Positions 466 through 13,016 of a stretch of DNA of 64,000 bases are shown one piece after another. The position numbers and the translations under genes were made by a program. Origin of the DNA: a virus; IMG/VR virus record IMGVR_UViG_3300045988_110853, positions 68,077 to 132,076 of that record; one strand, written 5' to 3'. The stretch's first letter is position 1; every line of letters starts with the position of its first letter. A model generated the notes under the pieces. It saw nothing but the letters and a program-made list of their open reading frames with translations. It did no database searches and was not told where the DNA came from.

Positions 466-494
466 AGTATAGCAGATTATTACATTTTTGTCTA
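466..494 (-). promoter_or_regulatory. sigma-A-type promoter TAGACA-N17-TATACT
   Basis: The hexamers were read directly. It lies upstream of gene 171-434. Confidence 0.5.
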
Positions 495-552
495 TTGGTA
501 AAATACACAAATTTAGGAAAATAATTAGTTGTATTTTTAGCTAAATTTCCTA

Positions 553-870: not shown

Positions 871-872
871 TT

Positions 873-1142: not shown

Positions 1143-1595
1143 TTAGCGCTCAGATACGATACTCAGATAGCGGTTAATCATATCCATTTCGCAACCCATG
1201 TCCCGCCAATCGCAAACCACATACCCAATGAGTTCGCCGTCTGTGGTAATCGGATAAACGCCGTAAGTGCTATTATAAGCAAATGGCTTTCTTTCATCTT
1301 CCCAATCAATAGGAGTGTAGGCCGGGAAGTTTTCCATACCCCGCAGTTTCACGGTAGTGTCATAGATTGCAATAGGACGCAGACCGGAATTTGATGCCAT
1401 TGTAATAGCGGTTCGCATAGCATCTTCGCTCAGCGAGCCAAGCACCGAATACCTCTTGAAGCAAACGCAGTCGTTATCTTCAATGAAGATTTCCAGCGGG
1501 TCGCCCTCGCGGATTTTCAGAGTGCGCCGAATCTCTTTCGGGATAACCACACGTCCAAGGTCATCAATTCTGCGAACAATACCAGTAGCTTTCAT
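1143..1595 (-). CDS. AbrB/SpoVT-family (swapped-hairpin, MazE-fold) DNA-binding regulator with an extra C-terminal domain of about 100 aa
   Basis: The N-terminus MKATGIVRRIDDLGRVVIPKEIRRTLKIREGDPLEIF closely resembles the Bacillus AbrB/SpoVT N-domain (MKSTGIVRKVDELGRVVIPIELRRTL...). The gene has its own promoter at 1626-1654 and an AAAGGGG ribosome-binding site. Confidence 0.75.
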   Translation of the reverse strand: MKATGIVRRIDDLGRVVIPKEIRRTLKIREGDPLEIFIEDNDCVCFKRYSVLGSLSEDAMRTAITMASNSGLRPIAIYDTTVKLRGMENFPAYTPIDWEDERKPFAYNSTYGVYPITTDGELIGYVVCDWRDMGCEMDMINRYLSIVSER

Positions 1596-1654: not shown

Positions 1655-1659
1655 GCCTT

Positions 1660-2369: not shown

Positions 2370-2442
2370 TATTATCACCCTTTCCTTTTTCTATTATAAT
2401 AATATCATATTATAATAGAAATGTCAATAGAGAGTTTTTAAT

Positions 2443-2601
2443 TTACTCTTTTAATTTTTCTAATAGGTCATCAGCACATTCATAGCTGATGCTCCGGCGG
2501 TCGCACTCGTTGGACAAAGGACAACAAGCGCAGTCATTAAAGGTTTCCGTCCAAGAGCGCAACCAGTCAATCAGGCGTAGAGTATCAACTTCTTCATACA
2601 T
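2443..2601 (-). CDS. cysteine-rich small protein (52 aa; ...CACCPLSNECDRR...)
   Basis: Hand-translated. An AAAGGAG ribosome-binding site lies 8 nt upstream. It overlaps the stop of the upstream gene and ends in TAA. Confidence 0.45.
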   Translation of the reverse strand: MYEEVDTLRLIDWLRSWTETFNDCACCPLSNECDRRSISYECADDLLEKLKE

Positions 2602-2938
2602 TGTTTTCAGTCTCCTTTACTCGGACAAAAAAGACCTTGTTATAGATTTTTGTTGCTTTAAGGTCAATCCAAAAATACACATTTCCGCATACTCGATAGA
2701 TTTTACAAGTTTCTCCGCTAACCTTTTTGACTTCCTCAAACTTCTCGGGCGTAGTAGGGTGGAAAATTGTCAGTTTGAGAAACATCGAATAGAAAGTTAA
2801 AGGAACGAACCCGATAATAATAGCAATCCACGCGAGAATGTCAGTTAAGGTATTTCTCCATTCACACCATTCATCAGTAATTGTAGCGAACGCAATACCC
2901 ACACAAAACGCGAGAATCAACCAATACCAAGCTACCAT
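2594..2938 (-). CDS. membrane protein (114 aa)
   Basis: Intact ORF with hydrophobic N-terminal helices and an AAAGGGGGGGA ribosome-binding site. Confidence 0.55.
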   Translation of the reverse strand: MVAWYWLILAFCVGIAFATITDEWCEWRNTLTDILAWIAIIIGFVPLTFYSMFLKLTIFHPTTPEKFEEVKKVSGETCKIYRVCGNVYFWIDLKATKIYNKVFFVRVKETENNV

Positions 2939-2989
2939 TGTTTTATCCCCCCTTTATTTGATGTATACATTTTACCAGATTATGGGAAT

Positions 2990-3166
2990 TTTGTCTATTG
3001 GCAGAATAGCCAAAAATCCGCTCGAAAATTTGTTGAATCTACATCTTGACAAAAACTCGGCGCGCCACAGTCGTTCGCGCGCCGGCCATTTTATCACATT
3101 TAAGGAACTTTGTCAATAGTGAAATTAAACAAAAAAAATCTCCCAAATTTGGGAGATTTTTCATTT
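2990..3166. repeat. intergenic cassette copy B (stem CGGCGCGCC..GGCGCGCCG, covariant with copy A)
   Basis: The stem-loop lies at 3050-3078 and is followed by ggccattttatcac as in copy A. Confidence 0.6.
3131..3166. terminator. hairpin TCTCCCAAATTTGGGAGA with flanking A/T runs
   Basis: Read directly. Confidence 0.6.
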
Positions 3167-3332
3167 AATTTTCTACTGCTTCAAGGTCGGCGAGAATGGG
3201 GATAAGCTTATCCTCAATGAGCGAAACGCGGTTAATCATTTCTTGGTCGGGGGTAGGAAGCTTCTGAATCCCATAACGCGCCATCATACAGACCTTTTCG
3301 ACAACTTCGCTAAGCTTTTCCTTATTTTCCAT
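3165..3332 (-). CDS. hypothetical protein (55 aa)
   Basis: Start at MENKEKL with a TAAGGAGA ribosome-binding site. The stop is TAA and a terminator follows at 3131-3166. Confidence 0.5.
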   Translation of the reverse strand: MENKEKLSEVVEKVCMMARYGIQKLPTPDQEMINRVSLIEDKLIPILADLEAVEN

Positions 3333-3441
3333 TTTTCTATTCTCCTTAAAATAAATTTTTTGGAAAGGGTGGCAGTTGATAGGCTCAACTGCCAAAGCCA
3401 TAGGAAAGGGGGAGAGAAACGCGAACAAATGTTCGGTTTTA

Positions 3442-3681
3442 TCAGGGAATAATCAGTTCCGCATCGTAGACAGGCCGAACCATACAGGGCGCGCCAAAGC
3501 AGTCGAGATTGTAAGTGTCCAAATTGAGAGCGTTCCATTCTTCTGCGCCGGTATTTTCATCAACCACTGACGCAGTTTTGATGTAATAGACGTTTCCGGA
3601 AGCGGGGTCTTGAAAAATCATACCTTCGGGGAGGTCTTCAAATGCAACCATTTTGTTGCTATGCTTAACAGTAATTTTCAT
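3442..3681 (-). CDS. hypothetical protein (79 aa)
   Basis: An AAGGAG ribosome-binding site lies 8 nt upstream of the ATG (MKITVK...). The stop is TGA. Confidence 0.55.
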   Translation of the reverse strand: MKITVKHSNKMVAFEDLPEGMIFQDPASGNVYYIKTASVVDENTGAEEWNALNLDTYNLDCFGAPCMVRPVYDAELIIP

Positions 3682-3686
3682 TTCAT

Positions 3687-4040
3687 TCACTCCTTATTAT
3701 AAAAGCGGTAAGCCCATTCAACGATTTCGTGGCTTGTAGTAGTCCATTCCTTTTTGGGGCTGTCAAACTTTTCCGCGTATTTTTTGACGTAGTCGTTGTA
3801 TTCCATGCGTGCGGTATCGTATGCTCCAATAGCTACAAGCAAGGACTGTTTTGCTTTTTCAGCATCAGAGACGGCTTTCTTGCGGTCTGCGCCCTCGGGG
3901 TAAAGGTCGATTACGCCTAAACGAGTAATGACTTGTGTTGTTTTTTCATACACGCGGTCGCGCTCTTCCCAAACCTCATAGAGCAGTTCGTCCGCGCGAT
4001 TCTCATAGGGATTGAATGGCTTTTTCTTCTTACCGAACAT
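3687..4040 (-). CDS. hypothetical protein (117 aa, MFGKKKKPFNPYENRADELLYEVWEERDRV...)
   Basis: The C-terminal 117 aa of the track ORF 3687..4328 are protein-like. The upstream part runs through intergenic sequence and the stop of the next gene. Confidence 0.5.
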   Translation of the reverse strand: MFGKKKKPFNPYENRADELLYEVWEERDRVYEKTTQVITRLGVIDLYPEGADRKKAVSDAEKAKQSLLVAIGAYDTARMEYNDYVKKYAEKFDSPKKEWTTTSHEIVEWAYRFYNKE

Positions 4041-4368
4041 TTTTCTTTTTCTCCTTTTCTTTCTTGTTCCAAATTCTGTCGAAGAACGCATTTGCGAGAA
4101 CACGCTTGTAAAGGTTATCAGGCATAGGGCGTTCGCCGTGCTTATTTCTCCAAATCGCGGTGATTTTATCAATATCCGCGATATAGGCGGTAATGAGTGT
4201 GCCGTCCGTAGCACTACGAACAAGAAGAACGCCTGTTGTAGTGATAGTGTAGAGGACATCTTCCTCAACGCTGTCGATATATGGCTCACCAATACCGATA
4301 TTGTCATAGATGAAGAACAAGCGGTCAATGCGGTCTTGCGTGGCGTGTTTTGACATTCTGATAAGCAT
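4030..4368 (-). CDS. hypothetical protein (112 aa)
   Basis: Start at MLIRMSK with an AGAAAGAGG ribosome-binding site. A promoter lies at 4406-4434. Confidence 0.55.
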   Translation of the reverse strand: MLIRMSKHATQDRIDRLFFIYDNIGIGEPYIDSVEEDVLYTITTTGVLLVRSATDGTLITAYIADIDKITAIWRNKHGERPMPDNLYKRVLANAFFDRIWNKKEKEKKKNVR

Positions 4369-4405
4369 TTGATTTACCTCTTTCTTTCTCTCTTGGATTG
4401 ATTGT

Positions 4406-4434
4406 ATTATACCATATAGGGAGGGGCTTGTCAA
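4406..4434 (-). promoter_or_regulatory. promoter TTGACA-N17-TATAAT within hairpin GGGAGGGGCTTGTCAAGCCCCT
   Basis: Read directly. Confidence 0.6.
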
Positions 4435-4440
4435 GCCCCT

Positions 4441-4590
4441 TTAATACAATTGTTCCCCATCGTGGTAGCGCTCATATTCCGCTTCAAGGAAGTCGAGAAT
4501 AGTTTCAAAGTCGTCTGCGTCCGCGGGGTCTGCAAAGGTCTTTTCAAGAACTTCGTTAGTGTGTCTATTGTAAACTCGAACCATATCCAT
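4441..4590 (-). CDS. hypothetical acidic protein (49 aa, MDMVRVYNRHTNEVLEKTFADPADADDFETILDFLEAEYERYHDGEQLY)
   Basis: Hand-translated with an AGAAAGAGGTAAG ribosome-binding site. The stop is TAA. Confidence 0.45.
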   Translation of the reverse strand: MDMVRVYNRHTNEVLEKTFADPADADDFETILDFLEAEYERYHDGEQLY

Positions 4591-4659
4591 TTTACTTACC
4601 TCTTTCTTGATTGTATATGTATTATATCATGCGAAAGGGCTTTTGTCAAGCCCTTTTTA

Positions 4660-4866
4660 TCAGAAATGATAATTTCTGATGATGACGTCGAACTTGGGAG
4701 CATATACGGTTTTCCACTGTTCTTCAAGGGTCTTATCATTCGTGCGATATGCTTCCCACGAGACTGCGCCATAGGCGTTGTGCTTGAAAAGCTCGGCATC
4801 ACTGGGCATTTGCTCGGCATAGAGAAGCTGGGTCTTGATAAAAGAATGAATGTTGTAGTTAGTCAT
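4660..4866 (-). CDS. hypothetical protein (68 aa)
   Basis: Start at MTNYNIHS. It has a conserved leader with a GAGGT ribosome-binding site. A promoter TAGACA-N17-TATACT lies at 4906-4934. Confidence 0.5.
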   Translation of the reverse strand: MTNYNIHSFIKTQLLYAEQMPSDAELFKHNAYGAVSWEAYRTNDKTLEEQWKTVYAPKFDVIIRNYHF

Positions 4867-4905
4867 TTTATTTACCTCATCTTTCTGTTCCCTTGGAACA
4901 ATTAT

Positions 4906-4934
4906 AGTATAGCAAATGCTTAGGCATTTGTCTA
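4906..4934 (-). promoter_or_regulatory. promoter TAGACA-N17-TATACT
   Basis: It lies upstream of the conserved leader of gene 4660-4866. Confidence 0.5.
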
Positions 4935-4944
4935 TTGACGGATC

Positions 4945-4974
4945 GCACAAAATTGGGAAAAATAATTTGTGCAA
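4945..4974. promoter_or_regulatory. inverted repeat GCACAAAATT-N9-AATTTGTGCAA (operator-like)
   Basis: Read directly. Confidence 0.4.
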
Positions 4975-4992
4975 ATTTTCGCAACTTTTTGC

Positions 4993-5021
4993 TTGACAAA
5001 TTGCTGGCCCTGTGATATACT
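4993..5021 (+). promoter_or_regulatory. plus-strand promoter TTGACA-N17-TATACT, convergent with the early genes
   Basis: Same architecture as 553-581. A GC hairpin lies at 5029-5055 and a terminator at 5109-5140. Confidence 0.5.
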
Positions 5022-5029
5022 GAAAATTC

Positions 5030-5140
5030 CGGCCGCAGCGTGCGTTGGCGGCCGGCCGAATTATACCACATTGAGATGGTTTTGTCAATAGTCAAATGAA
5101 ACAAAAATTTCAGGCGAGATTTGGTTATCTCGCCTGAAAA
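5030..5140 (+). ncRNA. candidate antisense small RNA of about 105 nt, a paralogue of the 592-700 element
   Basis: Same promoter/hairpin/terminator arrangement as at 592-700. Confidence 0.25.
5109..5140. terminator. hairpin CAGGCGAGAT..ATCTCGCCTG plus AAAA
   Basis: Read directly. Confidence 0.6.
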
Positions 5141-5347
5141 TTATTCGTCCCAAATAGCTCCCGCAATCCAAAAGTATTCATAGCGGAGTTTTGACTGAAT
5201 CGCAAATAAAGAATCTGCGATTTCTCCACCAATTTCCCGGTCATCTGCGACTGAAAGTGTTTGGCTTTCTCGCGCGATTCTTTGCGCCAGCTTTTCAAGG
5301 GCTTCCGCCTGTTCTTTCAAAGCCTGCGGAATAGTTTTTTCATTCAT
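5141..5347 (-). CDS. hypothetical protein (68 aa)
   Basis: Start at MNEKTIP with a GGAAAGGGG ribosome-binding site. The stop is TAA. Confidence 0.5.
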   Translation of the reverse strand: MNEKTIPQALKEQAEALEKLAQRIARESQTLSVADDREIGGEIADSLFAIQSKLRYEYFWIAGAIWDE

Positions 5348-5349
5348 AA

Positions 5350-5694
5350 TCAATTCCCCTTTCCGAAATTAGAAGTTAATTCTAATGTATGTCCGCACTC
5401 GTCGCAATACCAATAGTAATAAACCGTGCCGTATTTACCATGAGAAGCATTTACAAATTTCATTTCATTTCCGCAGATAGAACAATAGCCATCATTCCAC
5501 GCTTTTTTGTCGGCATTATGTTCTGCGATTATCGCGCCCGTCATACCATAGCCAAGAGCGCACGAAATGAGAATACCGACTAACAATCTCACTATTGGGT
5601 GGTGTTTATCCAGATTACACCAGCAGATAAGGCAAACAAATAGTGCCATAATTGCACTAAGGATTCCACCAATAATTAAGAATTCTGCGCTCAT
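5350..5694 (-). CDS. membrane protein with a C-terminal CxxC...CxxC zinc ribbon (114 aa)
   Basis: Start at MSAEFLIIGG with a GGAAAGGGGAAATAAAAATG ribosome-binding site. The sequence contains ...YCSICGNEM...YCDECGH.... Confidence 0.55.
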   Translation of the reverse strand: MSAEFLIIGGILSAIMALFVCLICWCNLDKHHPIVRLLVGILISCALGYGMTGAIIAEHNADKKAWNDGYCSICGNEMKFVNASHGKYGTVYYYWYCDECGHTLELTSNFGKGN

Positions 5695-5696
5695 TT

Positions 5697-5768
5697 TTAT
5701 TTCCCCTTTCCGCATTTAACGCATTGAGCGTGTGTTCCGCACTTTCCATCGCAATAAGGACATTCCAT
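5697..5768 (-). CDS. possible 23-aa zinc-ribbon microprotein (MECPYCDGKCGTHAQCVKCGKGK)
   Basis: Hand-translated with an AAAGGAAAGGGG ribosome-binding site. A promoter lies at 5799-5827. Its stop overlaps the ribosome-binding site of the next gene. Confidence 0.3.
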   Translation of the reverse strand: MECPYCDGKCGTHAQCVKCGKGK

Positions 5769-5798
5769 TGATTTATTCCCCTTTCCTTTGATACATTA

Positions 5799-5827
5799 AG
5801 TATAGCAGAAAAGGGGCTATTTGTCAA
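5799..5827 (-). promoter_or_regulatory. promoter TTGACA-N17-TATACT within a hairpin
   Basis: Read directly. Confidence 0.55.
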
Positions 5828-5846
5828 GCCCCTTTTCTCATTTTTT

Positions 5847-6209
5847 TTATTTTTCTTTTCTGATGGAATAGTAGGCTCTATTCCCTTTCTGCGTGCGGGT
5901 CAACTTTCTGTCAATCCAACAAAGATAACCGCAATACCACGAAATAGTGGAGCAGGAATATTCTTTGCCAGTTTCACGGTAAAGAATAAACTGAATCTCA
6001 GTAGGACGCAGGGGCTTTTCTGCCTTTGAGAGAACATCGAGCATCATGTTTTTCATCATGGTGTTGCGGATTTCCTGTTTCAGCTTCTGCGCTTCCTTGG
6101 CTTCCTGATACTGTAAGCAAGCCCTCTCCGCGTGAATTTTGTCAATCCCCTCGAAAGTGCCATTGTCAAGAAATTTCTTCAAAAGACTATAAGTTTCACC
6201 GTTAATCAT
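5847..6209 (-). CDS. hypothetical protein, possibly a winged-helix DNA-binding regulator (120 aa)
   Basis: Intact ORF with an AAAGGGGAAC ribosome-binding site. A promoter lies at 6241-6269. The C-terminus ...KGNRAYYSI... resembles a wHTH wing. The call is tentative. Confidence 0.5.
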   Translation of the reverse strand: MINGETYSLLKKFLDNGTFEGIDKIHAERACLQYQEAKEAQKLKQEIRNTMMKNMMLDVLSKAEKPLRPTEIQFILYRETGKEYSCSTISWYCGYLCWIDRKLTRTQKGNRAYYSIRKEK

Positions 6210-6240
6210 TTTGTGTTCCCCTTTCTTTTACTATACTTGT

Positions 6241-6269
6241 ATTATATCATCTACTTCTGGATTTGTCAA
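6241..6269 (-). promoter_or_regulatory. promoter TTGACA-N17-TATAAT
   Basis: Read directly. Confidence 0.6.
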
Positions 6270-6309
6270 GGGCTTTTTGGAAAAAGAGGGAAAAATTTTC
6301 CCTCTTTAT

Positions 6310-6582
6310 TTATCCCCAAAAAACCGAAAGAACGCCGTCAATGTAGCTGGTTTTATAACCATAATTCTGCATGATAGTTTTGCAAGCCTGCTTGACGCCC
6401 TTTTCCTTTAATGAAGCAAGAGAACATTCATAAAGTGTTTCTCCCGTTCCTGCCACTCGCTCAATTTCTGGCATGATGTGGTCTTCGATGAACGCCCGCG
6501 CAAGGGCATTATTTTTAGCTTGAATTTCTTTGCGGACTTCTTCGGCTTTGCGCGTCATTTCATAAGCGTATTTAATTTCCAT
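6310..6582 (-). CDS. hypothetical protein (90 aa)
   Basis: Intact ORF with an AAAGGGAG ribosome-binding site. A promoter lies at 6613-6641. Confidence 0.55.
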   Translation of the reverse strand: MEIKYAYEMTRKAEEVRKEIQAKNNALARAFIEDHIMPEIERVAGTGETLYECSLASLKEKGVKQACKTIMQNYGYKTSYIDGVLSVFWG

Positions 6583-6612
6583 TTTGTTTTCTCCCTTTCT
6601 CTTGATGCTTTT

Positions 6613-6641
6613 ATTATAGCATATAGGGCTTGTTTTGTCAA
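6613..6641 (-). promoter_or_regulatory. promoter TTGACA-N17-TATAAT embedded in hairpin 6617-6650
   Basis: Read directly. Confidence 0.6.
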
Positions 6642-6659
6642 GCCCTATATGCTATTTTT

Positions 6660-6968
6660 TTAGCAGTAGGCGAGATTCCCGCGCGCCCAGCCATATACGC
6701 TGATTTGATTGCACGCTTTGCCAATTTCGAGCGCCTGCTTCTTGGTCTGGACTCTCTTGGACTTGTCGATATAGTAGATGCCATTCGCGAACCAAACACC
6801 GCAGTTTCCGCCATATTCCTTGACCGCGTTAATGGCTTCGCGTGCGGTCTTACATTCCACGCCATCGGTAGCAACCTGCCAGCCGGACTTGTAATTGACT
6901 TTCTTGCCATATTTAAGGGTCAGACCGTCGTTTTCAACGAGCTTACGAATGGAACGAATGTTAATCAT
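6660..6968 (-). CDS. hypothetical phage protein (102 aa)
   Basis: Intact ORF with a GGAAAGGGAAAAC ribosome-binding site. The stop is TAA. The antisense track ORF 6630..7016 is rejected. Confidence 0.55.
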   Translation of the reverse strand: MINIRSIRKLVENDGLTLKYGKKVNYKSGWQVATDGVECKTAREAINAVKEYGGNCGVWFANGIYYIDKSKRVQTKKQALEIGKACNQISVYGWARGNLAYC

Positions 6969-7059
6969 AATGTTTTCCCTTTCCGGTTTGTTTGGGTTTT
7001 CCTTCCCTTACTGTGATTATAGTATAGCACCGATTCGGGATTTTGTCTATTGGCAGAAT

Positions 7060-7089
7060 ACACAAACTTTCACCATAAAAATTGTGCAA
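7060..7089. promoter_or_regulatory. inverted repeat ACACAAA-N14-ATTGTGCAA (operator-like)
   Basis: Read directly. Confidence 0.35.
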
Positions 7090-7165
7090 ATGGTCTATTG
7101 ACAGCAAATTCCGGCCGCGCCTGGCGTGCACGGCCGGCCGAATGAATATGCAAAATGGAGCGTAT

Positions 7166-7208
7166 AAAAATTCAGCGGATTTTTATGCAATCCGCTGAAT
7201 TTTCATTT
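7166..7208. terminator. hairpin ATTCAGCGGAT..ATCCGCTGAAT with flanking A/T runs
   Basis: Read directly. Confidence 0.6.
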
Positions 7209-7215
7209 CAAATTT

Positions 7216-7455
7216 TTAACCATCAACATAAATGATAAGAATATCGCCCTTAGCTTTCAAACCAGTGACAGGCAATCCCAGCACCCATTCTTCACTTGCA
7301 CCCAAAAAATTGCCATTCAAAGTCATATGACCCTTGCGGTCTTTGAGATAACGGCCATCAGTGTTTTCATTTATCACTTCGACGCCGTTCCCCTCATAGA
7401 ACATCAACGCACCTTTTACCGTGCCAATCACATTTTTAACCATGCTTAAAGTCAT
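7216..7455 (-). CDS. hypothetical protein (79 aa)
   Basis: Start at MTLSMVKN. Its leader of about 45 nt is identical to that of gene 4660-4866. A promoter TTGACT-N17-TATACT lies at 7486-7514. Confidence 0.5.
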   Translation of the reverse strand: MTLSMVKNVIGTVKGALMFYEGNGVEVINENTDGRYLKDRKGHMTLNGNFLGASEEWVLGLPVTGLKAKGDILIIYVDG

Positions 7456-7485
7456 TTTGTTTACCTCATCTTTCTGTTCCCCTTG

Positions 7486-7514
7486 GAACAATTATAGTAT
7501 AGCATAGGGTATAG
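7486..7514 (-). promoter_or_regulatory. promoter TTGACT-N17-TATACT
   Basis: Read directly. Confidence 0.55.
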
Positions 7515-7532
7515 CAAAAGTCAATAGTCAAA

Positions 7533-7575
7533 ATGGTAAAAAGAATCGGCAGGATTTTGTGTATCCTGCCGATTC
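7533..7575. terminator. hairpin GAATCGGCAGGAT..ATCCTGCCGATTC plus TTTT
   Basis: Read directly. Confidence 0.6.
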
Positions 7576-7577
7576 TT

Positions 7578-7772
7578 TTAGTCTTCCCAACTCTCGATGA
7601 CTTCGCCGGTCATAGCGTCGATAATGTCAACCGAAAGAACATTATCTGCGTCGGCGAACTTCTGACCGAGGGCGTATGCGTTTTCCTGTCCCGCGACAGA
7701 CACTTCATAGCGATAGCGGTTGTTATCACCAGCCTTGTAGTTGTAGTAGTTAACAGAAACGATAAATAACAT
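7578..7772 (-). CDS. hypothetical protein (64 aa)
   Basis: An AAAGGGGAAC ribosome-binding site precedes it. A promoter lies at 7803-7830. The stop is TAA. Confidence 0.5.
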   Translation of the reverse strand: MLFIVSVNYYNYKAGDNNRYRYEVSVAGQENAYALGQKFADADNVLSVDIIDAMTGEVIESWED

Positions 7773-7802
7773 TTTTTTGTTCCCCTTTCTTTTTATACTC
7801 TT

Positions 7803-7830
7803 ATTATAGCACGGTTTTAGGATTTGTCAA
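7803..7830 (-). promoter_or_regulatory. promoter TTGACA-N16-TATAAT
   Basis: Read directly. Confidence 0.55.
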
Positions 7831-7854
7831 TAGTTTTTTTGAAAAAAGTTTGAA

Positions 7855-7892
7855 AAAAAATAAGGGCGTTTCCGCCCTTATTTTTCATAAAC
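7855..7892. terminator. hairpin AAGGGCG-TTTC-CGCCCTT with flanking A/T runs
   Basis: Read directly. Confidence 0.6.
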
Positions 7893-8135
7893 GATAATGT
7901 TGTTGCCTAACTTTTCAACGCGAGAATCTTCACAAAAGTGATAGGTAAAATCCGCGTAAAGATGTTTGAGAAATTCGCGTCTCCATTCGCGGGACTTCGG
8001 CTCTAATTCAAAAAGAATGTAAAGCGTTTCCTCTAATCGGTCGAGAAAGTTTTCAGTGTCCGCGATGTTGAACTTGCCCGCGAGCTTTGGCGTGGGGTTA
8101 TAAGCGCTAATAGTGAGAATGTTGTAAGTTGTCAT
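7878..8135 (-). CDS. hypothetical protein (85 aa)
   Basis: An AAAGGAGA ribosome-binding site precedes it. A promoter lies at 8166-8194. Confidence 0.5.
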   Translation of the reverse strand: MTTYNILTISAYNPTPKLAGKFNIADTENFLDRLEETLYILFELEPKSREWRREFLKHLYADFTYHFCEDSRVEKLGNNIIVYEK

Positions 8136-8165
8136 GGAAAAATCTCCTTTTCATTTGATGTTTTT

Positions 8166-8194
8166 ATTATACACGATAGTATGGAACTTGTCAA
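8166..8194 (-). promoter_or_regulatory. promoter TTGACA-N17-TATAAT
   Basis: Read directly. Confidence 0.6.
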
Positions 8195-8199
8195 TACTT

Positions 8200-8240
8200 A
8201 AAATAGAAAAAAGAGAAGTTTTTTCAACTTCTCTTTTTCA
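8200..8240. terminator. hairpin AGAGAAGTT..AACTTCTCT plus TTTT
   Basis: Read directly. Confidence 0.55.
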
Positions 8241-8328
8241 GCTTCTTTTCTGCCCATTCAATCAGCGCGCCCGCGGTGATTGTGCCAACGTAAATGAAAA
8301 GTAAAACTAAACCATCATGCAAACTCAT
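8224..8328 (-). CDS. possible 34-aa membrane microprotein (MSLHDGLVLLFIYVGTITAGALIEWAEKKLKKRS)
   Basis: A GGAGG ribosome-binding site lies 9 nt upstream. It has a single hydrophobic helix. A terminator follows. Confidence 0.35.
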   Translation of the reverse strand: MSLHDGLVLLFIYVGTITAGALIEWAEKKLKKRS

Positions 8329-8329
8329 T

Positions 8330-8458
8330 TTAATATTCCTCCACATACTCTGTAAAGACAAGCTCCCAGTCCGGGCCGAGATCCGGAGTTTTGCAGTATA
8401 ATGACTGTCGAATGTCATGCTCATTAGTGATTTTGTTGATAAACTCGAATTCATACAT
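8330..8458 (-). CDS. hypothetical small protein (42 aa, MYEFEFINKITNEHDIRQSLYCKTPDLGPDWELVFTEYVEEY)
   Basis: Hand-translated with a GAAAAGGAG ribosome-binding site. A promoter lies at 8490-8518. The track ORF 8224..8454 in another frame is probably an artefact. Confidence 0.4.
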   Translation of the reverse strand: MYEFEFINKITNEHDIRQSLYCKTPDLGPDWELVFTEYVEEY

Positions 8459-8489
8459 TGTTGTTATCTCCTTTTCTTATTGTATCTAC

Positions 8490-8518
8490 ATTATAGCAGA
8501 CAACAGGGCATTTGTCAA
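8490..8518 (-). promoter_or_regulatory. promoter TTGACA-N17-TATAAT
   Basis: Read directly. Confidence 0.6.
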
Positions 8519-8524
8519 TACCAT

Positions 8525-8562
8525 TTATAAAAAAATGTACGAGGTTTAATCCTCGTACATTT
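8525..8562. terminator. hairpin TGTACGAGG..CCTCGTACA with flanking A/T runs
   Basis: Read directly. Confidence 0.55.
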
Positions 8563-8842
8563 CCATTAACGATTTGATTTTTTCAATCGCATTTTCAATT
8601 TCTTCTACATAGTCTGCTTGTTCTTCGCTTGCGCGCATTGCCTGTTCATATGCGTCATAGATGGCTTCGCACTGTTCACGGGTATATTCTTCTTCTGGTG
8701 CGTGCTCCATGGCGACGACTGCCGCCCACGCGAGCGTTTCCGCGTCATCGAGGTTATCAGCCTTTTCCGTGGCAGTGGTAAGTTCGTGTTCGAGGCGCGT
8801 TTTTTCGAGCGAGAGGGTCTTGAGAAATTCGGTATTAGTCAT
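8546..8842 (-). CDS. acidic hypothetical protein (98 aa)
   Basis: An AAAAGGAGA ribosome-binding site precedes it. A promoter lies at 8875-8902 and a terminator at about 8520-8560. Confidence 0.55.
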   Translation of the reverse strand: MTNTEFLKTLSLEKTRLEHELTTATEKADNLDDAETLAWAAVVAMEHAPEEEYTREQCEAIYDAYEQAMRASEEQADYVEEIENAIEKIKSLMEMYED

Positions 8843-8874
8843 TGTGGTGTATCTCCTTTTCTTTTGATACCTCT

Positions 8875-8902
8875 ATTATAGCACTTCTGGACTGAATGTC
8901 AA
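8875..8902 (-). promoter_or_regulatory. promoter TTGACA-N16-TATAAT
   Basis: Read directly. Confidence 0.55.
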
Positions 8903-9180
8903 TAGGTTTTTGAAAAAAATATTTATTCATCAGGGCTGTATAAATATTCATGTATAAATATTCATTTTCGGGTGCATAAAGGCGACTGGCATAATGCACA
9001 AATTCGTTTGAAAATTTTTGTGCAACTTGCCTATTGCAAAACTCGGCGCGCTGCGGCCCACAGCGCGCCGGCCAAATGTATATGTATGATTATTCATGTA
9101 TATTCATTGCATATTCATTGTATATTTATTCATACATAATATGCAAAAATAGAGAGAGACTTAATAAGCCTCTCTCCACA
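8893..9180. repeat. intergenic cassette copy E, with flanking TATTCAT heptamer repeats
   Basis: The stem-loop lies at 9044-9073. Seven TATTCAT copies lie at 8925-8970 and 9090-9135. Confidence 0.6.
8996..9025. promoter_or_regulatory. inverted repeat GCACAAA-N14-TTTGTGCAA (operator-like)
   Basis: Read directly. Confidence 0.4.
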
Positions 9181-9526
9181 CCTTGATTATTTCATCATCT
9201 GCTATATCATCTGTGTCATTGTCGTTTATCCACAAAAGCAGAAAATCATTATCGTCAATGGTCATATTCTCAACTTCCCATTGGTTGCCGCGTTCGTCCA
9301 GTAGCGTGATAGTGTTACCATTTCGGGAAGCGACCTCTGCGCCGATAAAGCGTATGCTTCCTCTCTCTGTGCCAGCGCCACACCATTCATCTAATGCGGT
9401 GAGGTCGTAGGACTGCGGCGCTTCCTCGCAGGCTTCCGCGGTTGCGTGGTCATGGAATGAGCCGAAGAAAGACACGGAGAGAATGATGGCAATGACCATG
9501 GTGATGATTTTGGAAATGTTTTTCAT
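9161..9526 (-). CDS. secreted or membrane-anchored protein (121 aa; N-terminal signal/TM, acidic C-terminus)
   Basis: Intact ORF with an AGAAAGAGG ribosome-binding site. It has a hydrophobic N-terminus. Confidence 0.55.
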   Translation of the reverse strand: MKNISKIITMVIAIILSVSFFGSFHDHATAEACEEAPQSYDLTALDEWCGAGTERGSIRFIGAEVASRNGNTITLLDERGNQWEVENMTIDDNDFLLLWINDNDTDDIADDEIIKVWREAY

Positions 9527-9548
9527 TTTGTTTTACCTCTTTCTTACT

Positions 9549-9692
9549 TTATAGGTTAGTAGCGATAGTGACAACAGCAATAAGCATGAGCGTGCTTGAG
9601 ATAGCTTTACCTATGCTCTTGCTATCTATGGCATAGACAAAATTATATGCGCTTATAGCGGTAAGCACAATAATAGCGGCAATGATAGACAT
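9549..9692 (-). CDS. possible 47-aa membrane protein
   Basis: Hand-translated with an AGAGGGGAG ribosome-binding site. The sequence is two hydrophobic segments. Confidence 0.35.
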   Translation of the reverse strand: MSIIAAIIVLTAISAYNFVYAIDSKSIGKAISSTLMLIAVVTIATNL

Positions 9693-9722
9693 GGCATATG
9701 CTCCCCTCTTTGAGCGAGTGGG

Positions 9723-10196
9723 TTAAACCCACTCGCTGAATAACTCACTGATGAAGTCATCGTGTACGTCATCAGGCAGTTGATCGATGGTGCACTCATA
9801 GGTGCTTACCACGGTAAGCGATGAGCCATTCTCAAGGTTCTCGCGCTCAAACTTATCACGCTCGCCAGACGAGAGGAAAAATGCGGTATAATCGTAAGTG
9901 TCTTCTCCATCATTGATGGAATAGTCCACCACCTTAAAGCGTGTTTTGTTCCAGAGGTTCGCTATGATGGACAAATCCATGGCCAGCTCTTCCTCGCGGC
10001 GGACAGCTTCGAGAGACGCCTTATACTTGCGCCATGCGGCTACCGTAAAGTCTCTTATGCCGCACCCAATAAGACAATGGTATTCCTCTAAGTCTTTGAT
10101 AACCAGTTTACGTCCCTCGCGCACCATATCCCAAGCATCTTCCGCCATTGCGTTGATGGTGACAGCATCATATTTATGCAAGCCCTGAATTTTCAT
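9723..10196 (-). CDS. hypothetical protein (157 aa)
   Basis: Intact ORF with a GGGAAGGG ribosome-binding site. A hairpin at 9712-9735 overlaps the stop. Confidence 0.55.
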   Translation of the reverse strand: MKIQGLHKYDAVTINAMAEDAWDMVREGRKLVIKDLEEYHCLIGCGIRDFTVAAWRKYKASLEAVRREEELAMDLSIIANLWNKTRFKVVDYSINDGEDTYDYTAFFLSSGERDKFERENLENGSSLTVVSTYECTIDQLPDDVHDDFISELFSEWV

Positions 10197-10277
10197 TGTG
10201 TAGCCCTTCCCGCGCTTTTTGCGCTATCGTGTTATATGTAGGTATGTTCCCCCTGTGGGGAGTGAGGGCTTGCGCCC

Positions 10278-10571
10278 TCACTTTGCAATCTTTGCGGTAA
10301 CGGAAGCCGCACGCGGCGCGCCGACTTTCTTGTACTTATCAAAGCACTCGGCATAGAGTTTCGGCGCCTTGTTGCGGAACATCACCGTGTCGAGCGTTTC
10401 AGTAGCCTTGCCGCCCTTGCCAACAATAACAGTAAACTTATTGTAAGTAAAGGTAACGCTTTCGCCGTTAGCTTCCTCGCGGGCTTCTGCCTTGAGTAAT
10501 TCTAATTGTTCCTTGAGCACGTCTATCTGCGCGGAAAGCTCACACATCTTTTTAATTTTGTTGTTCGTCAT
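10278..10571 (-). CDS. hypothetical protein with an N-terminal coiled coil (97 aa)
   Basis: Start at MTNNKIKK with an AAGAGGA ribosome-binding site. The stop is TGA. A hairpin at 10261-10282 overlaps the stop. Confidence 0.55.
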   Translation of the reverse strand: MTNNKIKKMCELSAQIDVLKEQLELLKAEAREEANGESVTFTYNKFTVIVGKGGKATETLDTVMFRNKAPKLYAECFDKYKKVGAPRAASVTAKIAK

Positions 10572-10666
10572 TTTGTAAATCCTCTTTTCATGTATTTTGC
10601 TGTTCGGTGTTCCGCCGTTCAGCATGGTTACATGGTAGCAGATTCAGCCACGGGATACAATTGACG

Positions 10667-10712
10667 GATTGCACAAAGATTTGTTTTGTACGGGGCGGGC
10701 TTTTGTGCAATC
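10667..10712. promoter_or_regulatory. perfect 11-bp inverted repeat GATTGCACAAA-N24-TTTGTGCAATC (candidate operator) at the early/late junction
   Basis: Read directly. Related half-sites GCACAAA/TTTGTGCAA also lie at 4945-4974, 7060-7089, 8996-9025 and 503-538. Confidence 0.45.
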
Positions 10713-10999
10713 TACCGCCGGGCGGCACCCTTGCATCATACCTTTGCATTTTTATTCACTCAAAAATGAATAAAACCTGCATGGGGCGGGGTGTATTTCG
10801 GGAAAAATAAATTTTTATTTATTATTTTTTCTTTTGCCTGGTCAAAACACAATCTAAATCAATTTTCAATTTCAAATTACGGATTAAAACAATAATCTTA
10901 AATTACGATTTTTTCTTTCTGCCCCTTTTAGGCTTCTCTCTCCACATAAGGGTATATAATCCAGAAGTAGCAGAATAAGTAGCTTTCTGCTGATACTTT

Positions 11000-11395
11000 T
11001 TAGCAACTGCCTTCAATGGACTGAGTGGTTTCCGCATTTAATTTTTCCTCCATATATTCGATTAATTTATCTTTATATTTACAACTATCAATATATTTAT
11101 TAATAGTATCTATATCATATTTTTCCATTAAATGCTCTAATACATATTTGTATTTGTTTAACTGATATTCTTCCTGTTCTTTTTTAGTGCTTAATTGAGC
11201 CTTTTCCGCGTCTGATAAAGGTCTGTAAGTAATTGTTCTTGATCCATTATCCTTTTTCTCAATACGTATTGTTTTAAACAATTTCCAATCTCTTACAAAA
11301 GGATCTTTATCTCTTGTTGCATTAAAATATTCTTGTTCTAATCTAAATATTACCGCATCTATCCCTCTTACTTCAAAAGGCTGGTTCCGCTCCAT
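11000..11395 (-). CDS. hypothetical protein (131 aa), in the AT-rich region
   Basis: Start at MERNQPF with a GGGAGGA ribosome-binding site. The stop is TAA. Confidence 0.5.
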   Translation of the reverse strand: MERNQPFEVRGIDAVIFRLEQEYFNATRDKDPFVRDWKLFKTIRIEKKDNGSRTITYRPLSDAEKAQLSTKKEQEEYQLNKYKYVLEHLMEKYDIDTINKYIDSCKYKDKLIEYMEEKLNAETTQSIEGSC

Positions 11396-11765
11396 CTTCA
11401 ATATCCTCCCATTCAAATGTTCCATCATCTAATTCATATACAAACGCTTGCTTATAAAATGATGAAACAATTCCATCATTTGTAATTCCTTTTGGGCTAT
11501 TTTTCGCATCATGGAAACAATTATAAACAATTAATCCTTGCGTTTCATATCGCGAAAAATCTACTGCTCTTCCCTCAAAATCATAATTATAAAATATATT
11601 TAACAATAGCATACATTCATATTGCGCGATCGGCCATTTATTTAATTCTTTCTATTGATTTTCCATTTTCTAATATAGCACCCAGAAAGCTTTTCTATAT
11701 AACCATAAAAAAAGGAGCGATGCTACTAACGCACAACTCAATATTACAATAAAAACAATTTTCAT
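11373..11765 (-). CDS. hypothetical secreted/membrane protein (130 aa) containing 2 in-frame TAG sense codons
   Basis: The track ORF 11373..11612 extends in frame through two TAG codons to an ATG at 11765. That ATG is preceded by AAAAGGAG. The sequence starts MKIVFIVILSCALVASLLF.... The stop is TGA. Confidence 0.5.
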
Positions 11766-11907
11766 AAATACTCCTTTTCTTTTTTTTCTTATAATAATGA
11801 TAAAATAAAAAAAATAAAATGTCAAGTTGTGGCGCGTGCTTGGGCGAAAGTTATTTGTTTTATTAAAAAAATTTTTAAATATAAAAAGAAAAATTTTTAA
11901 ATGAAAC

Positions 11908-11936
11908 TTGACAGAAAAAATTTTTTCAAGTATAAT
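11908..11936 (+). promoter_or_regulatory. consensus promoter TTGACA-N17-TATAAT at the head of the plus-strand late/structural operon
   Basis: Read directly. A GGAGGT ribosome-binding site and ATG 11961 follow. Confidence 0.6.
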
Positions 11937-11960
11937 ATAAATATAGACTGGAGGTAAAAA

Positions 11961-13016
11961 ATGATAAAACTTGATTATTCTTTACAAACTCCAGAAGAAA
12001 GAAATCAATTAGTCGAACAAATTTTGGCTGATAATCCAGATCCGCCTGAGAAATATTTAGAAATTTTAGCAGACTATTTGGTTCTTTGTATGGAGAAACA
12101 AGAAAAAAAGGAGAAAAAATTATTAACTGATAACCGTATGGCAACAGTTAATAAACGTGAAACTTCTTTTGAAGGTCTTGTTTCCCAACTTGAAAATGGC
12201 GAAGATGGAATTTATAATTTAATTACAGATAATAGAAATACAATATTTCAACCACATATTACAATTACAAAAAAAGATTTAGAAGAAATACCAAGTTTAA
12301 ATTAGTTAAGAGAAGCCATTAATGTTTGGGAGGCTAAATTAAAAGTAACAGAAGGCAAGGATGCTTTTGTTATTAAAAAGGCTCTTATTGAAATGCGTAA
12401 AGATTAGTATGTTATGAAAAATGCTTATCGTCGTCCAATAGTGCCTACAAAATTAACCAGATCAAAGTCTTATATTCCATTAGATGATAAAACATTTATT
12501 TTTGATGATGATGGTTTTCCCATTCCCGATGGAATTAGTTTATTAAGACCTGAAATATGTTCTGCGGTTTTATGTAATTATTCCCGATTAAAGCAAGATA
12601 GTTGGGGCGAATATGATAAAGATTTATGGTATTTAATGGAGGATTTTGATAAGCTTTGTGATAAAGCCTTAGCTAATTATCCTCTTTATGATAGAATCGT
12701 TGAATATAAAATTGATGGTTTACAAAATATTGACATTCAAGAGAAAATACAAATGGAATTTGGTATTAAACATAGTCTTGAATATATTTCAAGTTTATGG
12801 CGTAATAAAATTCCAAAATTAATTGCTTCGACTGCGGAAGATGAATATTTAGATAATTATTATTTAAATGTTGAAAAAGGTAAATATAAAAAATGTAGTC
12901 GTTGTGGTAAAATAAAATTAGCTCATAATAAATATTTTAGTAAAAATAAAACAAGTAAAGATGGCTTTTATAGTATTTGTAAAAGTTGTCGAAATTCTAA
13001 GGCCAAAAAATCTTAA
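11961..13016 (+). CDS. hypothetical protein with a C-terminal CxxC...CxxC zinc ribbon (351 aa; 2 in-frame TAG)
   Basis: It follows a consensus promoter at 11908-11936 and a GGAGGT ribosome-binding site. Track ORFs 11961..12305 and 12414..13016 lie in the same frame and are joined by TAG codons. The real stop is TAA. Confidence 0.6.

What the first reader, a model, noticed from the sequence alone, without database searches (positions are those of the whole stretch)
4945..10712. Recurrent inverted repeat GCACAAA...TTTGTGCAA is a candidate operator set
A palindromic motif recurs at 503-538 (degenerate), 4945-4974, 7060-7089, 8996-9025 and 10667-10712. The last copy is a perfect 11-bp inverted repeat, GATTGCACAAA-N24-TTTGTGCAATC. 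Each copy sits just upstream of a -35 hexamer inside the cassettes. The perfect copy lies in the roughly 370-bp non-coding gap that separates the early and late modules. This fits a dimeric repressor or activator that co-ordinates the early operons and the early-to-late switch. Candidate binders encoded nearby are the AbrB/SpoVT-like protein (1143-1595) and the possible winged-helix protein (5847-6209).
Basis: seen in the sequence. Interest (0 to 1): 0.6.

Follow-up and report, generated by a model that had tools for sequence, protein, structure and literature searches.

The report
Conserved two-part operator at phage promoters
A split palindrome (TTGCACAAA, 14 or 24 free bases, TTTGTGCAA) sits at a fixed distance upstream of some early promoters of this gut phage and of hundreds of related and unrelated phage contigs, so it is almost certainly a protein-binding control site, but the protein that binds it is still unknown.

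Summary
The motif is real. Three exact copies (4945-4972, 8996-9023, 10671-10708) against 0.00 expected. One further copy has one mismatch per arm (7060-7087). The copy at 503-538 cannot be told from chance on its own.

Its properties point to a DNA site read by a protein with two DNA-binding heads, not to a hairpin:
- The arms are conserved as sequence and the spacer is free.
- The spacer length is quantised. In the viral collection N14 and N24 each gave at least 120 hits; N12 and N19 gave 8 each.
- Arm changes are not compensatory (2 of 52).
- The promoter-proximal arm ends 8/9, 18/19 or 29/30 bp before a -35 hexamer.

The 370-bp gap lies inside the leftward early module. The real divergence is at about 11.83-11.91 kb, next to a phage sigma-factor-like gene.

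Both proposed binders exist: a SpoVT-like protein and a winged-helix protein. Neither tracks operator type. The same N24 palindrome also sits in both terminal repeats of unrelated 13-kb phi29-like phages that lack both proteins. I therefore favour a host-encoded binder, but this is untested. My bacterial genome scan used the wrong spacing (N10).

The parts
10667..10712 (.). Long-form palindrome GATTGCACAAA-N24-TTTGTGCAATC (cassette 6)
   Evidence: highest matrix score, 32.7
8994..9025 (.). Short-form palindrome ATGCACAAA-N14-TTTGTGCAA (cassette 5)
   Evidence: score 32.0
7058..7089 (.). Short-form palindrome with one mismatch per arm, ATACACAAA-N14-ATTGTGCAA (cassette 4)
   Evidence: (score 15.3, borderline)
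4943..4974 (.). Short-form palindrome TCGCACAAA-N14-TTTGTGCAA (cassette 3)
   Evidence: score 29.3
3008..3037 (.). Degenerate copy in cassette 2 (AGCCAAAAA ... TTTGTTGAA).
503..534 (.). Degenerate copy in cassette 1. The promoter-proximal arm ATACACAAA is kept; the distal arm is eroded.
   Evidence: (not above noise)
10632..10660 (-). Weak promoter TTGTAT-17-TACCAT (TGC before the -10), 8 bp downstream of the proximal arm of the perfect copy. It drives 10571-10278.
7021..7049 (-). Promoter TAGACA-17-TATACT, 8 bp from the palindrome, with TCCCGAA in its spacer. It drives 6968-6660.
4906..4934 (-). Promoter TAGACA-17-TATACT, 8 bp from the palindrome. It drives 4866-4660 and the genes downstream.
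2969..2997 (-). Promoter TAGACA-17-TAAAAT of cassette 2
466..494 (-). Promoter TAGACA-17-TATACT of cassette 1
4993..5021 (+). Opposite-strand promoter TTGACA-17-TATACT, 18 bp from the other arm. It fires into the G+C-rich hairpin. A counterpart lies at 553-581, where the spacing to the degenerate distal arm is about 20 bp.
   Evidence: 18-bp class
5029..5055 (-). G+C-rich hairpin CCGGCCG..CGGCCGG followed by AATTTT on the minus strand (terminator-like). Counterparts at 589-615, 3058-3085, 7111-7137 and 9044-9070.
5060..5088 (-). Consensus promoter TTGACA-17-TATAAT immediately upstream of the hairpin (also at 618-646 and 3088-3116). It is convergent with the plus-strand promoter.
5847..6209 (-). 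Winged-helix protein: a long helix (residues 21-62) followed by a winged helix (69-116). A divergent member of the ~120-aa family ('fam3') that co-occurs with the motif.
1143..1595 (-). SpoVT-like protein: AbrB-type N-domain plus a shortened C-domain
11961..13016 (+). Context: sigma-factor-like gene with two in-frame TAG codons, the first gene of the rightward module

Best explanation
The palindrome is a two-part DNA operator. A symmetric protein with two separated DNA-reading heads (an extended dimer or a dimer of dimers) binds TTGCACAAA and TTTGTGCAA. The two arms lie two helical turns apart (N14) or three (N24), on one face of the helix.

The site is placed in a fixed rotational register upstream of the -35 of a sub-class of sigma-A-type early promoters. 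The centre of the short-form site is at about -60 at the 8/9-bp distance and about -70 or -81 at the 18/19- and 29/30-bp distances; the long (N24) form is centred about 5 bp further upstream. From there the bound protein touches RNA polymerase and modulates initiation at the adjacent promoter, and in two cassettes also at the divergent promoter on the other side.

Shown:
- the sequence constraints, the spacing quantisation and the promoter phasing;
- conservation across hundreds of phage contigs.

Inferred:
- that a protein binds;
- that it acts through RNA polymerase contact;
- the direction of the effect. I lean towards activation or conditional tuning of promoters with weaker -35 elements in this phage.

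Binder: not identified. I think a host-encoded factor is the most likely (about 0.45 of the weight). The reason is that an unrelated phi29-like phage family, which lacks both phage candidates, carries the same operator in its terminal repeats.
For: Non-randomness: 3 exact copies against 0.00 expected in the window.

Footprint in relatives: arms are conserved and spacers differ in phages whose conserved protein is only 68-83% identical.

Spacing:
- Arm-to-arm start distances over distinct instances: 22 bp (57 times), 32 bp (28), 38 bp (12), with few others.

Not a pairing element: of 52 instances with one change in each arm, only 2 are compensatory; about 2.5 are expected by chance.

Phase to the promoter: the distance from the proximal arm to the -35 is 8 (70 times), 9 (11), 18 (13), 19 (2), 29-30 (9) or 33 (6).

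Distinct promoter sub-class: -35 TAGACA in 25% against 3.5% of 1980 other strong promoters; CCCGA in the spacer in 16% against 2%. In the window, all four TAGACA promoters are the palindrome-linked ones.

Host factor:
- At least 15 complete 13-kb genomes with inverted terminal repeats and phi29-like genes carry the N24 palindrome plus the same aatGTCAATAGACA in both repeats. They have no fam3 and no SpoVT-type gene.
- Closely related phages carry different palindromes in the same slot. One type matches the clostridial Rex consensus.
- Neither phage candidate co-varies with operator type.
Against: - There are no binding or expression data.
- The one scan of bacterial genomes used N10 instead of N14, so no host site with the phage geometry has been seen.
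- The fixed 8-bp distance could partly reflect common descent of whole cassettes rather than selection, although the 18- and 29-bp classes argue otherwise.
- Many palindrome-linked promoters in relatives are already near-consensus, which fits repression better than activation.
- fam3 co-occurs strongly with the motif, and both canonical fam3 genes of this phage lie behind palindrome-bearing cassettes. This is what an autoregulated phage repressor would look like.
Confidence: 0.6

Rival explanations
1. The binder is phage-encoded: the ~120-aa winged-helix family (fam3). This phage has two canonical copies just outside the window and the divergent copy at 5847-6209. The long helix would form an extended dimer that spans two turns. 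The protein would accumulate early and then feed back on the palindrome-linked promoters, including those ahead of its own genes (early shut-off or autoregulation).
For: - fam3 is among the three families most often found next to the motif in loci chosen by the motif alone (24 of 43 loci, 39 members).
- Two-by-two table in loci fetched with another gene: motif and fam3 32, fam3 only 10, motif only 1, neither 36.
- 0 of 8 N12 control loci and 0 of 120 bacterial loci carry fam3.
- The fam3 profile hits 5850-6227 (E 5e-7).
- The structure model shows a 42-residue helix plus a winged helix, and the best fold matches are DNA-binding domains of Fur, Zur, BlaI and PadR.
- The canonical copies at L411 13856-14230 and 16465-16842 each lie 420-500 nt behind a cassette.
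Against: - The co-occurrence is confounded by shared ancestry. An exonuclease and a HAD-like protein co-occur just as well.
- The recognition helix (S/T-N/T-Q-K/R-V-S-A-L-L) is the same in phage groups whose slot holds TTAGACGT-N3-ACGTCTAA instead.
- The phi29-like phages with the same palindrome have no fam3.
- Close homologues of 5847-6209 itself occur only in near relatives, whereas the motif is far more widespread.
Confidence: 0.2
2. The binder is an AbrB/SpoVT-type tetramer: the phage SpoVT-like protein (1143-1595), the host's own SpoVT or AbrB, or both. Its two N-domain dimers would each read one arm. This would tie early phage transcription to the host's sporulation state.
For: - The phage N-domain is 37/38 identical to B. 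subtilis SpoVT. Any site it reads would therefore also be read by the host protein, which could explain sharing between unrelated phages.
- A tetramer with two DNA-binding modules fits two short sites that lie whole helical turns apart (established knowledge of AbrB and SpoVT architecture).
- No SpoVT consensus is known, so nothing contradicts this (PMC5061766).
- The phage also encodes a SASP-like protein.
- SpoVT-type genes lie within about 10 kb of the motif in 7 of 120 motif-selected loci.
Against: - About 36 phage loci with the identical N-domain have the 8-mer only at chance level.
- No palindrome is present upstream of six full-length spoVT genes that I examined.
- Sister groups with the same N-domain carry other palindromes.
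Confidence: 0.12
3. The cassettes, palindrome included, are mobile promoter-terminator units like the PeSLs of T4-type phages. They would be kept similar by recombination and would serve gene shuffling. The palindrome would then be a passenger or a recombination signal, not a regulator site.
For: - The window and its left flank hold eight repeated units of terminator, G+C-rich hairpin, palindrome and promoter, flanking small genes of unknown function.
- Early gene content is highly mosaic among close relatives.
- PeSLs are composite terminator/early-promoter repeats that mediate shuffling (PMC2839356, PMC4122927).
Against: - Homogenisation by recombination would conserve the spacer as well as the arms; here only the arms are conserved.
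- It does not explain the N14/N24 quantisation across the whole viral collection.
- It does not explain the occurrence in terminal repeats of unrelated phages.
- The two roles are not mutually exclusive.
Confidence: 0.05
4. The arms pair with each other as an RNA hairpin (processing or stability element, attenuator) or as a DNA cruciform.
For: - The site is a perfect inverted repeat.
- It lies downstream of an upstream promoter in three cassettes and so could be transcribed.
Against: - There is no excess of compensatory changes (2 of 52).
- A 10-bp step in loop length has no meaning for a hairpin.
- No Rfam family matches.
- No U-tract follows the arms.
Confidence: 0.03

Closest known systems
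Binding sites of phage phi29 regulator p4 (5'-CTTTTT-15 bp-AAAATG-3')
   Same: Short inverted arms about two helical turns apart with an A/T-rich spacer. They are read by an elongated dimer, lie upstream of promoters in a Firmicutes phage, and act through RNA polymerase contact. They can activate a promoter with a poor -35 and repress strong early ones (PMC3100819; the polymerase-contact part is established knowledge).
   Different: The arm sequence is different. This site also has a second allowed spacing, one helical turn longer. No p4 homologue was looked for or seen. Copies are spread over many cassettes rather than one control region. The element is also present in unrelated phages.
Class I activator sites (CRP-type, centred near -61.5, -71.5, -82.5)
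   Same: An inverted repeat centred near -60, -70 or -81 with strict face-of-helix dependence relative to the -35. The promoters involved have weaker -35 elements.
   Different: CRP-type sites are 22 bp with arms one turn apart; here the arms are two or three turns apart. Activation has not been shown.
PeSL promoter-terminator cassettes of T4-type phages
   Same: Repeated composite units of a stem-loop terminator plus an early promoter, flanking small variable genes in a plastic early region (PMC2839356, PMC4122927).
   Different: PeSLs have no described operator. Here a palindrome slot sits between terminator and promoter, and its content differs between phage groups. The host is Gram-positive and the phage family is different.
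Host-regulator boxes in phage early regions (Spo0A boxes of phi29 and Nf; Rex operators)
   Same: Phages of spore-forming Firmicutes place sites for host regulators at early promoters (PMC2731898). Sister clades of this phage carry exact Rex-consensus boxes TTGTTAA-N4-TTAACAA in the same slot.
   Different: The window's palindrome matches neither Spo0A boxes nor the Rex consensus. Its binder is unknown.

Membership tests
Protein-bound operator acting on an adjacent promoter | Arms conserved as sequence across relatives while the spacer varies | tested here: met
   Half-site positions A3, A5 and A6 are almost invariant.
Protein-bound operator acting on an adjacent promoter | Allowed arm spacings differ by whole helical turns | tested here: met
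   N14 and N24 each at least 120 hits; N12 and N19 8 each. Distance histogram.
Protein-bound operator acting on an adjacent promoter | Fixed position or phase relative to core promoter elements | tested here: met
   8/9, 18/19 or 29/30 bp to the -35
Protein-bound operator acting on an adjacent promoter | A specific protein binds and changes transcription | not testable with these tools
   Needs gel-shift or footprinting assays and reporter assays
phi29 p4-type regulatory site | Arms CTTTTT / AAAATG separated by 15 bp | tested here: not met
   The geometry is similar (centre-to-centre 21 bp) but the arm sequence is GCACAAA / TTTGTGC
phi29 p4-type regulatory site | A p4 homologue is encoded by the phage | not tested
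   No search with p4 was run. None of the 30 early proteins has a relevant family hit.
Rex operator | TTGTGAA-N4-TTCACAA or TTGTTAA-N4-TTAACAA, 18 bp | tested here: not met
   The window palindrome has other arms and a 14/24-bp spacer. The feature is met only by sites in sister clades L021 and L029.
RNA hairpin or intrinsic terminator | Pairing maintained by compensatory changes; U-tract after the stem | tested here: not met
   2 of 52 compensatory. No T-run follows the arms. No Rfam hit.
PeSL-like mobile promoter-terminator cassette | Repeated composite terminator plus early promoter flanking variable small genes | tested here: met
PeSL-like mobile promoter-terminator cassette | Gene gain and loss breakpoints fall in the repeats | not tested
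   Only presence or absence of genes was compared
SpoVT/AbrB operator | Matches the regulator's consensus site | not testable with these tools
   No SpoVT consensus exists (PMC5061766)

The most novel reading that the evidence does not exclude
At least two unrelated families of gut Firmicutes phages have independently wired the same bipartite site for a still unnamed host regulator into their early control regions. One family is the ~100-kb TAG-recoded group of this window; the other is a group of 13-kb phi29-like phages. The host regulator could be an AbrB/SpoVT-type tetramer. Sister clades plug other host-regulator boxes, including exact Rex boxes, into the same slot between terminator and promoter. 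Early phage transcription would then be a swappable read-out of host physiological state (redox, sporulation). The phage sites would reveal the unknown recognition sequence of that host regulator.
Probability: 0.3. Interest if true: 0.8.

Novelty: new variant of a known kind. Interest (0 to 1): 0.55.

Why it matters
Regulator sites in uncultivated gut phages are almost unknown. This one has unusually clean comparative evidence: hundreds of instances, a clear spacing rule and a clear phase rule. It is therefore ready for direct binding tests.

The slot architecture of terminator, exchangeable palindrome and promoter suggests how these phages re-wire early transcription.

If the binder is a host protein, the phage sites would define its recognition sequence. 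They would also show phages that sense host state before committing to lysis. If the binder is the winged-helix family, that would give a function to a widespread family of unknown phage proteins.

Tried and rejected
- Near-identity DNA search of 1-12000 against deposited phages: no match.
- Rfam on the early region and on the left flank: only sub-threshold noise.
- Full-text search for the two 8-mers: primers only.
  - Its more than 120 hits have a different geometry. They include Oscillospiraceae sites between mutS2 and an HPr-like gene, Bacteroidales sites ahead of acyl-CoA ligase genes, and others.
  - I do not count them as host sites for the phage operator.
- A first viral scan used N12 by the same slip. 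I kept it as a negative control and added N19.
- SpoVT autoregulation through this motif: no palindrome upstream of six full-length spoVT genes.
- Discriminating residues in SpoVT-type N-domains between motif-rich and motif-poor loci: none.
- Co-variation of the fam3 recognition helix with operator type: none.
- Pfam, PHROGs and NCBIfam on the 30 early proteins: only the SpoVT/AbrB domain and a near-threshold SASP hit.
- Autoregulation test by distance: only about 31 of 116 fam3 genes have a palindrome within about 470 bp upstream.
- tRNA search for a TAG suppressor in the window and the left flank: none.

Full report
**What the window is.**
- Bases 1 to about 11,800 are a leftward (minus-strand) early region of small genes in the standard code, with 39-42% G+C.
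- It holds about twenty consensus sigma-A-type promoters, TTGACA-17-TGnTATAAT.
- From 11,961 the genes run rightward at about 30% G+C. They give long reading frames only if TAG is read through, up to 2,981 codons.
- The first rightward gene (11961-13016, two in-frame TAGs) matches the PHROG sigma-factor family (E 3e-35). It also matches genes annotated as sigma factor in ~140-kb Enterococcus phages.
- The window is part of a 196-kb human gut metagenome contig, which I retrieved as L411. L411 extends 8.8 kb beyond the left edge of the window.

**The observation.**
- GCACAAA-N(10-40)-TTTGTGC occurs exactly three times, at 4945-4972, 8996-9023 and 10671-10708. Shuffles gave 0.00.
- A position-weight scan built from distant relatives ranks 10667-10712, 8992-9027 and 4941-4976 far above everything else (scores 29-33). 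7056-7091 is borderline (15.3; the best shuffle reached 15.9). The copy at 503-538 is not above noise.
- Single arms are not enriched in the window, and no copy lies in the 52 kb of rightward genes.
- The copies belong to six repeated cassettes, which I number 1 to 6 from the left end of the window (cassette 1 at about 480-640, cassette 6 at about 10,660-10,720). Read on the minus strand, a cassette has this order:
  1. a bidirectional terminator;
  2. in three cassettes, a consensus promoter;
  3. a G+C-rich hairpin followed by A(A/G)TTT;
  4. in two cassettes, a consensus promoter on the opposite strand;
  5. the palindrome;
  6. 8 bp;
  7. a promoter with a sub-consensus -35 (TAGACA four times, TTGTAT once);
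  8. a ribosome-binding site and a gene.
- Two more cassettes lie just left of the window.
- The 370-bp gap that holds the perfect copy is flanked by two minus-strand genes. The true divergence of the two modules is at 11,826-11,907.

**Conservation.**
- The sigma-like protein retrieved 80 related loci at 68-100% identity.
- In these loci, and in loci fetched with the SpoVT-like protein, the arms aTTGCACAAA / TTTGTGCAAt recur while the spacers differ.
- Over distinct instances, the start-to-start distance between arms is 22 bp 57 times and 32 bp 28 times. There is a minor 28/38 series.
N12 and N19 gave 8 each. The allowed spacings therefore differ by one helical turn.

**DNA site or hairpin?**
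- 206 distinct instances are perfect, 126 have one mismatch, and 52 have one mismatch in each arm.
- Only 2 of those 52 keep complementarity, which is the chance expectation.
- Positions A3, A5 and A6 of the arm almost never change.
- The arms are conserved as sequence, not as a stem, and no Rfam family matches. I reject the hairpin reading.

**Relation to promoters.**
- For nearly every palindrome there is a strong sigma-A-type promoter on one side.
- The proximal 8-mer ends 8 bp (70 times), 9 (11), 18 (13), 19 (2), 29-30 (9) or 33 (6) before the -35 hexamer.
- With a 17-bp spacer, the short-form site is centred near -60 at the 8/9-bp distance and near -70 or -81 at the 18/19- and 29/30-bp distances; the long (N24) form is centred about 5 bp further upstream. 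These are the classical face-specific positions of upstream activators.
- Palindrome-linked promoters form a distinct sub-class when compared with 1,980 other strong promoters in the same loci:

| Feature | Palindrome-linked | Other promoters |
|---|---|---|
| -35 TAGACA | 25% | 3.5% |
| -10 TATACT | 37% | 16% |
| CCCGA in the spacer | 16% | 2% |

- A G+C-rich stem of at least 7 bp lies within 100 nt upstream in 59 of 181 cases, against 10 of 181 random windows.
- I infer a regulator that contacts RNA polymerase. The sign of regulation is open. The weaker -35 elements in this phage suggest activation. The many near-consensus promoters in relatives suggest repression of the phi29 p4/A2c kind (PMC3100819).

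**Who binds?
- 1143-1595 is SpoVT-like:
  - It has PF04014, a partial match to TIGR02851, and 37/38 identity to B. subtilis SpoVT over the N-domain.
  - The identical N-domain occurs in about 36 phage loci where the motif is at chance level.
  - Full-length spoVT genes in my loci have no such palindrome upstream.
  - No SpoVT consensus is known (PMC5061766).
- 5847-6209 had no family hit. Its model (pLDDT 94) is a 42-residue helix plus a winged helix. The best fold matches are the DNA-binding domains of Fur, Zur, BlaI and PadR.
- Unbiased clustering of reading frames in 43 motif-rich loci, chosen by the motif alone, put a ~120-aa winged-helix family ('fam3') among the three most frequent families:
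  - It occurs in 24 loci with 39 members.
  - Its profile hits 5850-6227 (E 5e-7).
  - It also hits two canonical genes 2.3 and 4.9 kb left of the window (E 5e-40 and 2e-37). Each lies behind a cassette with a hybrid site GCACAAA-N24-TTTGGTT.
  - In loci fetched with another gene, motif and fam3 go together: 32 both, 10 fam3 only, 1 motif only, 36 neither.

**Why I still do not name fam3 as the binder.**
- Sister phage groups that share fam3 and the SpoVT-type N-domain carry other palindromes in the same slot:
  - TTAGACGT-N3-ACGTCTAA, 24-25 copies per 20 kb in L107 and L110;
  - TTAGACGAA-N-TTCGTCTAA in L140;
  - TTGTTAA-N4-TTAACAA in L021 and L029, which is the Rex consensus used for Clostridia (PMC9600882).
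  - These are documented.
- The fam3 recognition helix does not change with operator type.
- Among the N24 hits are at least 15 complete 13.1-14.3-kb linear genomes with perfect inverted terminal repeats and 50% G+C:
  - They encode a DNA polymerase, a head protein, a packaging ATPase and an upper collar connector of phi29 type.
  - They carry the N24 palindrome followed by aatGTCAATAGACA in both terminal repeats.
  - They have no fam3 and no SpoVT-type gene.
- The same operator in two unrelated phage families is most simply explained by a host-encoded binder. A regulator supplied in trans during co-infection cannot be excluded.
- I could not test the host directly. My single scan of bacterial genomes used N10 by mistake. 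Its many hits, for example between mutS2 and an HPr-like gene in Oscillospiraceae, have a different geometry and are reported only as a side observation.

**Verdict.**
- The operator interpretation is supported.
- The early-to-late switch is not supported.
- The binder is unresolved. My weighting is: host factor about 0.45, fam3 about 0.2, AbrB/SpoVT-type about 0.12, and the rest other.
- In kind this is an upstream promoter operator inside promoter-terminator cassettes. It resembles phi29 p4 sites in geometry and T4 PeSLs in organisation. It has a new sequence, a two-length spacing rule and an exchangeable slot.

Noticed in passing
window 11958-64000 (+ strand): The rightward genes need TAG read-through; ORFs then reach up to 2,981 codons. 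The leftward early genes use the standard code and have about 10% higher G+C. No tRNA gene is in the window or in the 8.8 kb to its left, so the suppressor must be encoded elsewhere.
   Followed up: partly
window 11961-13016 (+): A sigma-factor-like gene (phrog_5767, E 3e-35) with two in-frame TAG codons sits directly behind a consensus sigma-A promoter (11908-11936). It is a likely driver of middle or late transcription, and it itself depends on TAG suppression.
   Followed up: partly
L412-L524, e.g. L424 (13,100 bp), L419, L434, L450: At least 15 complete linear contigs of about 13 kb have perfect inverted terminal repeats and phi29-like genes. They carry the N24 palindrome plus GTCAATAGACA in both terminal repeats, 15-60 nt from the ends. 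L419 starts with sequencing-adapter remains, which suggests a true DNA end.
   Followed up: partly
L107, L110 (about 24 copies each), L140 (14 copies); L021, L029, L052: Sister phage groups have other palindromes in the same slot between terminator and -35. These are TTAGACGT-N3-ACGTCTAA, TTAGACGAA-N-TTCGTCTAA, exact Rex-consensus boxes TTGTTAA-N4-TTAACAA, and TTGTTCACAA arrays.
   Followed up: partly
window 553-646 and 4993-5088: Two consensus promoters face each other across the G+C-rich hairpin, with start points about 25 nt apart. The minus-strand promoter would give a hairpin RNA of about 40 nt ending at AATTTT. The plus-strand promoter would give an antisense RNA of about 110 nt ending at the bidirectional terminator. 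The plus-strand promoter, including its spacer (AATTGCTGGGGCTGTGG), is conserved in distant relatives.
   Followed up: partly
window 1098-1137, 5807-5838, 6616-6655: These are terminator hairpins that carry the next promoter's -35 (TTGACA) in the loop and its TGCTATAAT -10 in and after the 3' arm. Terminator and promoter overlap completely.
   Followed up: no
window 8920-9140: Seven or more copies of ATGAATA(W3-4)ATACA flank cassette 5 on both sides, and one copy lies in cassette 4 (7143-7155). They resemble ARG-box or iteron arrays (from memory) and are unexplained.
   Followed up: no
window 3422-3435: CGAACAAATGTTCG is a perfect match to the Gram-positive LexA (Cheo) box consensus as I recall it. 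It lies in the intergenic region upstream of the gene 3332-3165.
   Followed up: no
window 873-1064 (-): A 63-aa protein has a near-threshold match to alpha/beta-type small acid-soluble spore proteins (21.6 bits; the cut-off is 22). Together with the SpoVT-like gene this points to a spore-forming host.
   Followed up: no
L411 13340-13420 and 15890-15960 (left of the window): Hybrid sites GCACAAA-N24-TTTGGTT lie in the two cassettes ahead of the canonical winged-helix genes. Cassette 2 of the window has a similar TTTTGGCT proximal arm. This may be a second half-site specificity.
   Followed up: no
phage loci L001-L162 and L291-L410; window 7027-7033: TCCCGAAA recurs in the 17-bp spacer of palindrome-linked promoters (16% against 2%). 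Its reverse complement TTTCGGGA recurs inside palindrome spacers. This may be a second recognition element.
   Followed up: partly
L163-L282 (bacterial genomes): TTGCACAAA-N10-TTTGTGCAA, a different spacing, gave more than 120 hits in bacterial genomes. They lie at conserved intergenic places: between mutS2 and an HPr-like gene plus uvrC in Oscillospiraceae, ahead of acyl-CoA ligase and outer-membrane genes in Bacteroidales, and ahead of an XRE-type gene in gut Alphaproteobacteria.
   Followed up: partly
L411 13440-13560 and 15985-16130: Stretches of 100-150 nt with no called gene (the first holds only a very short ORF) lie between successive promoters ahead of the winged-helix genes; the second is visibly G+C-rich, and each ends in a terminator-like hairpin. 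They may be small RNAs. There is no Rfam or tRNA match.
   Followed up: partly
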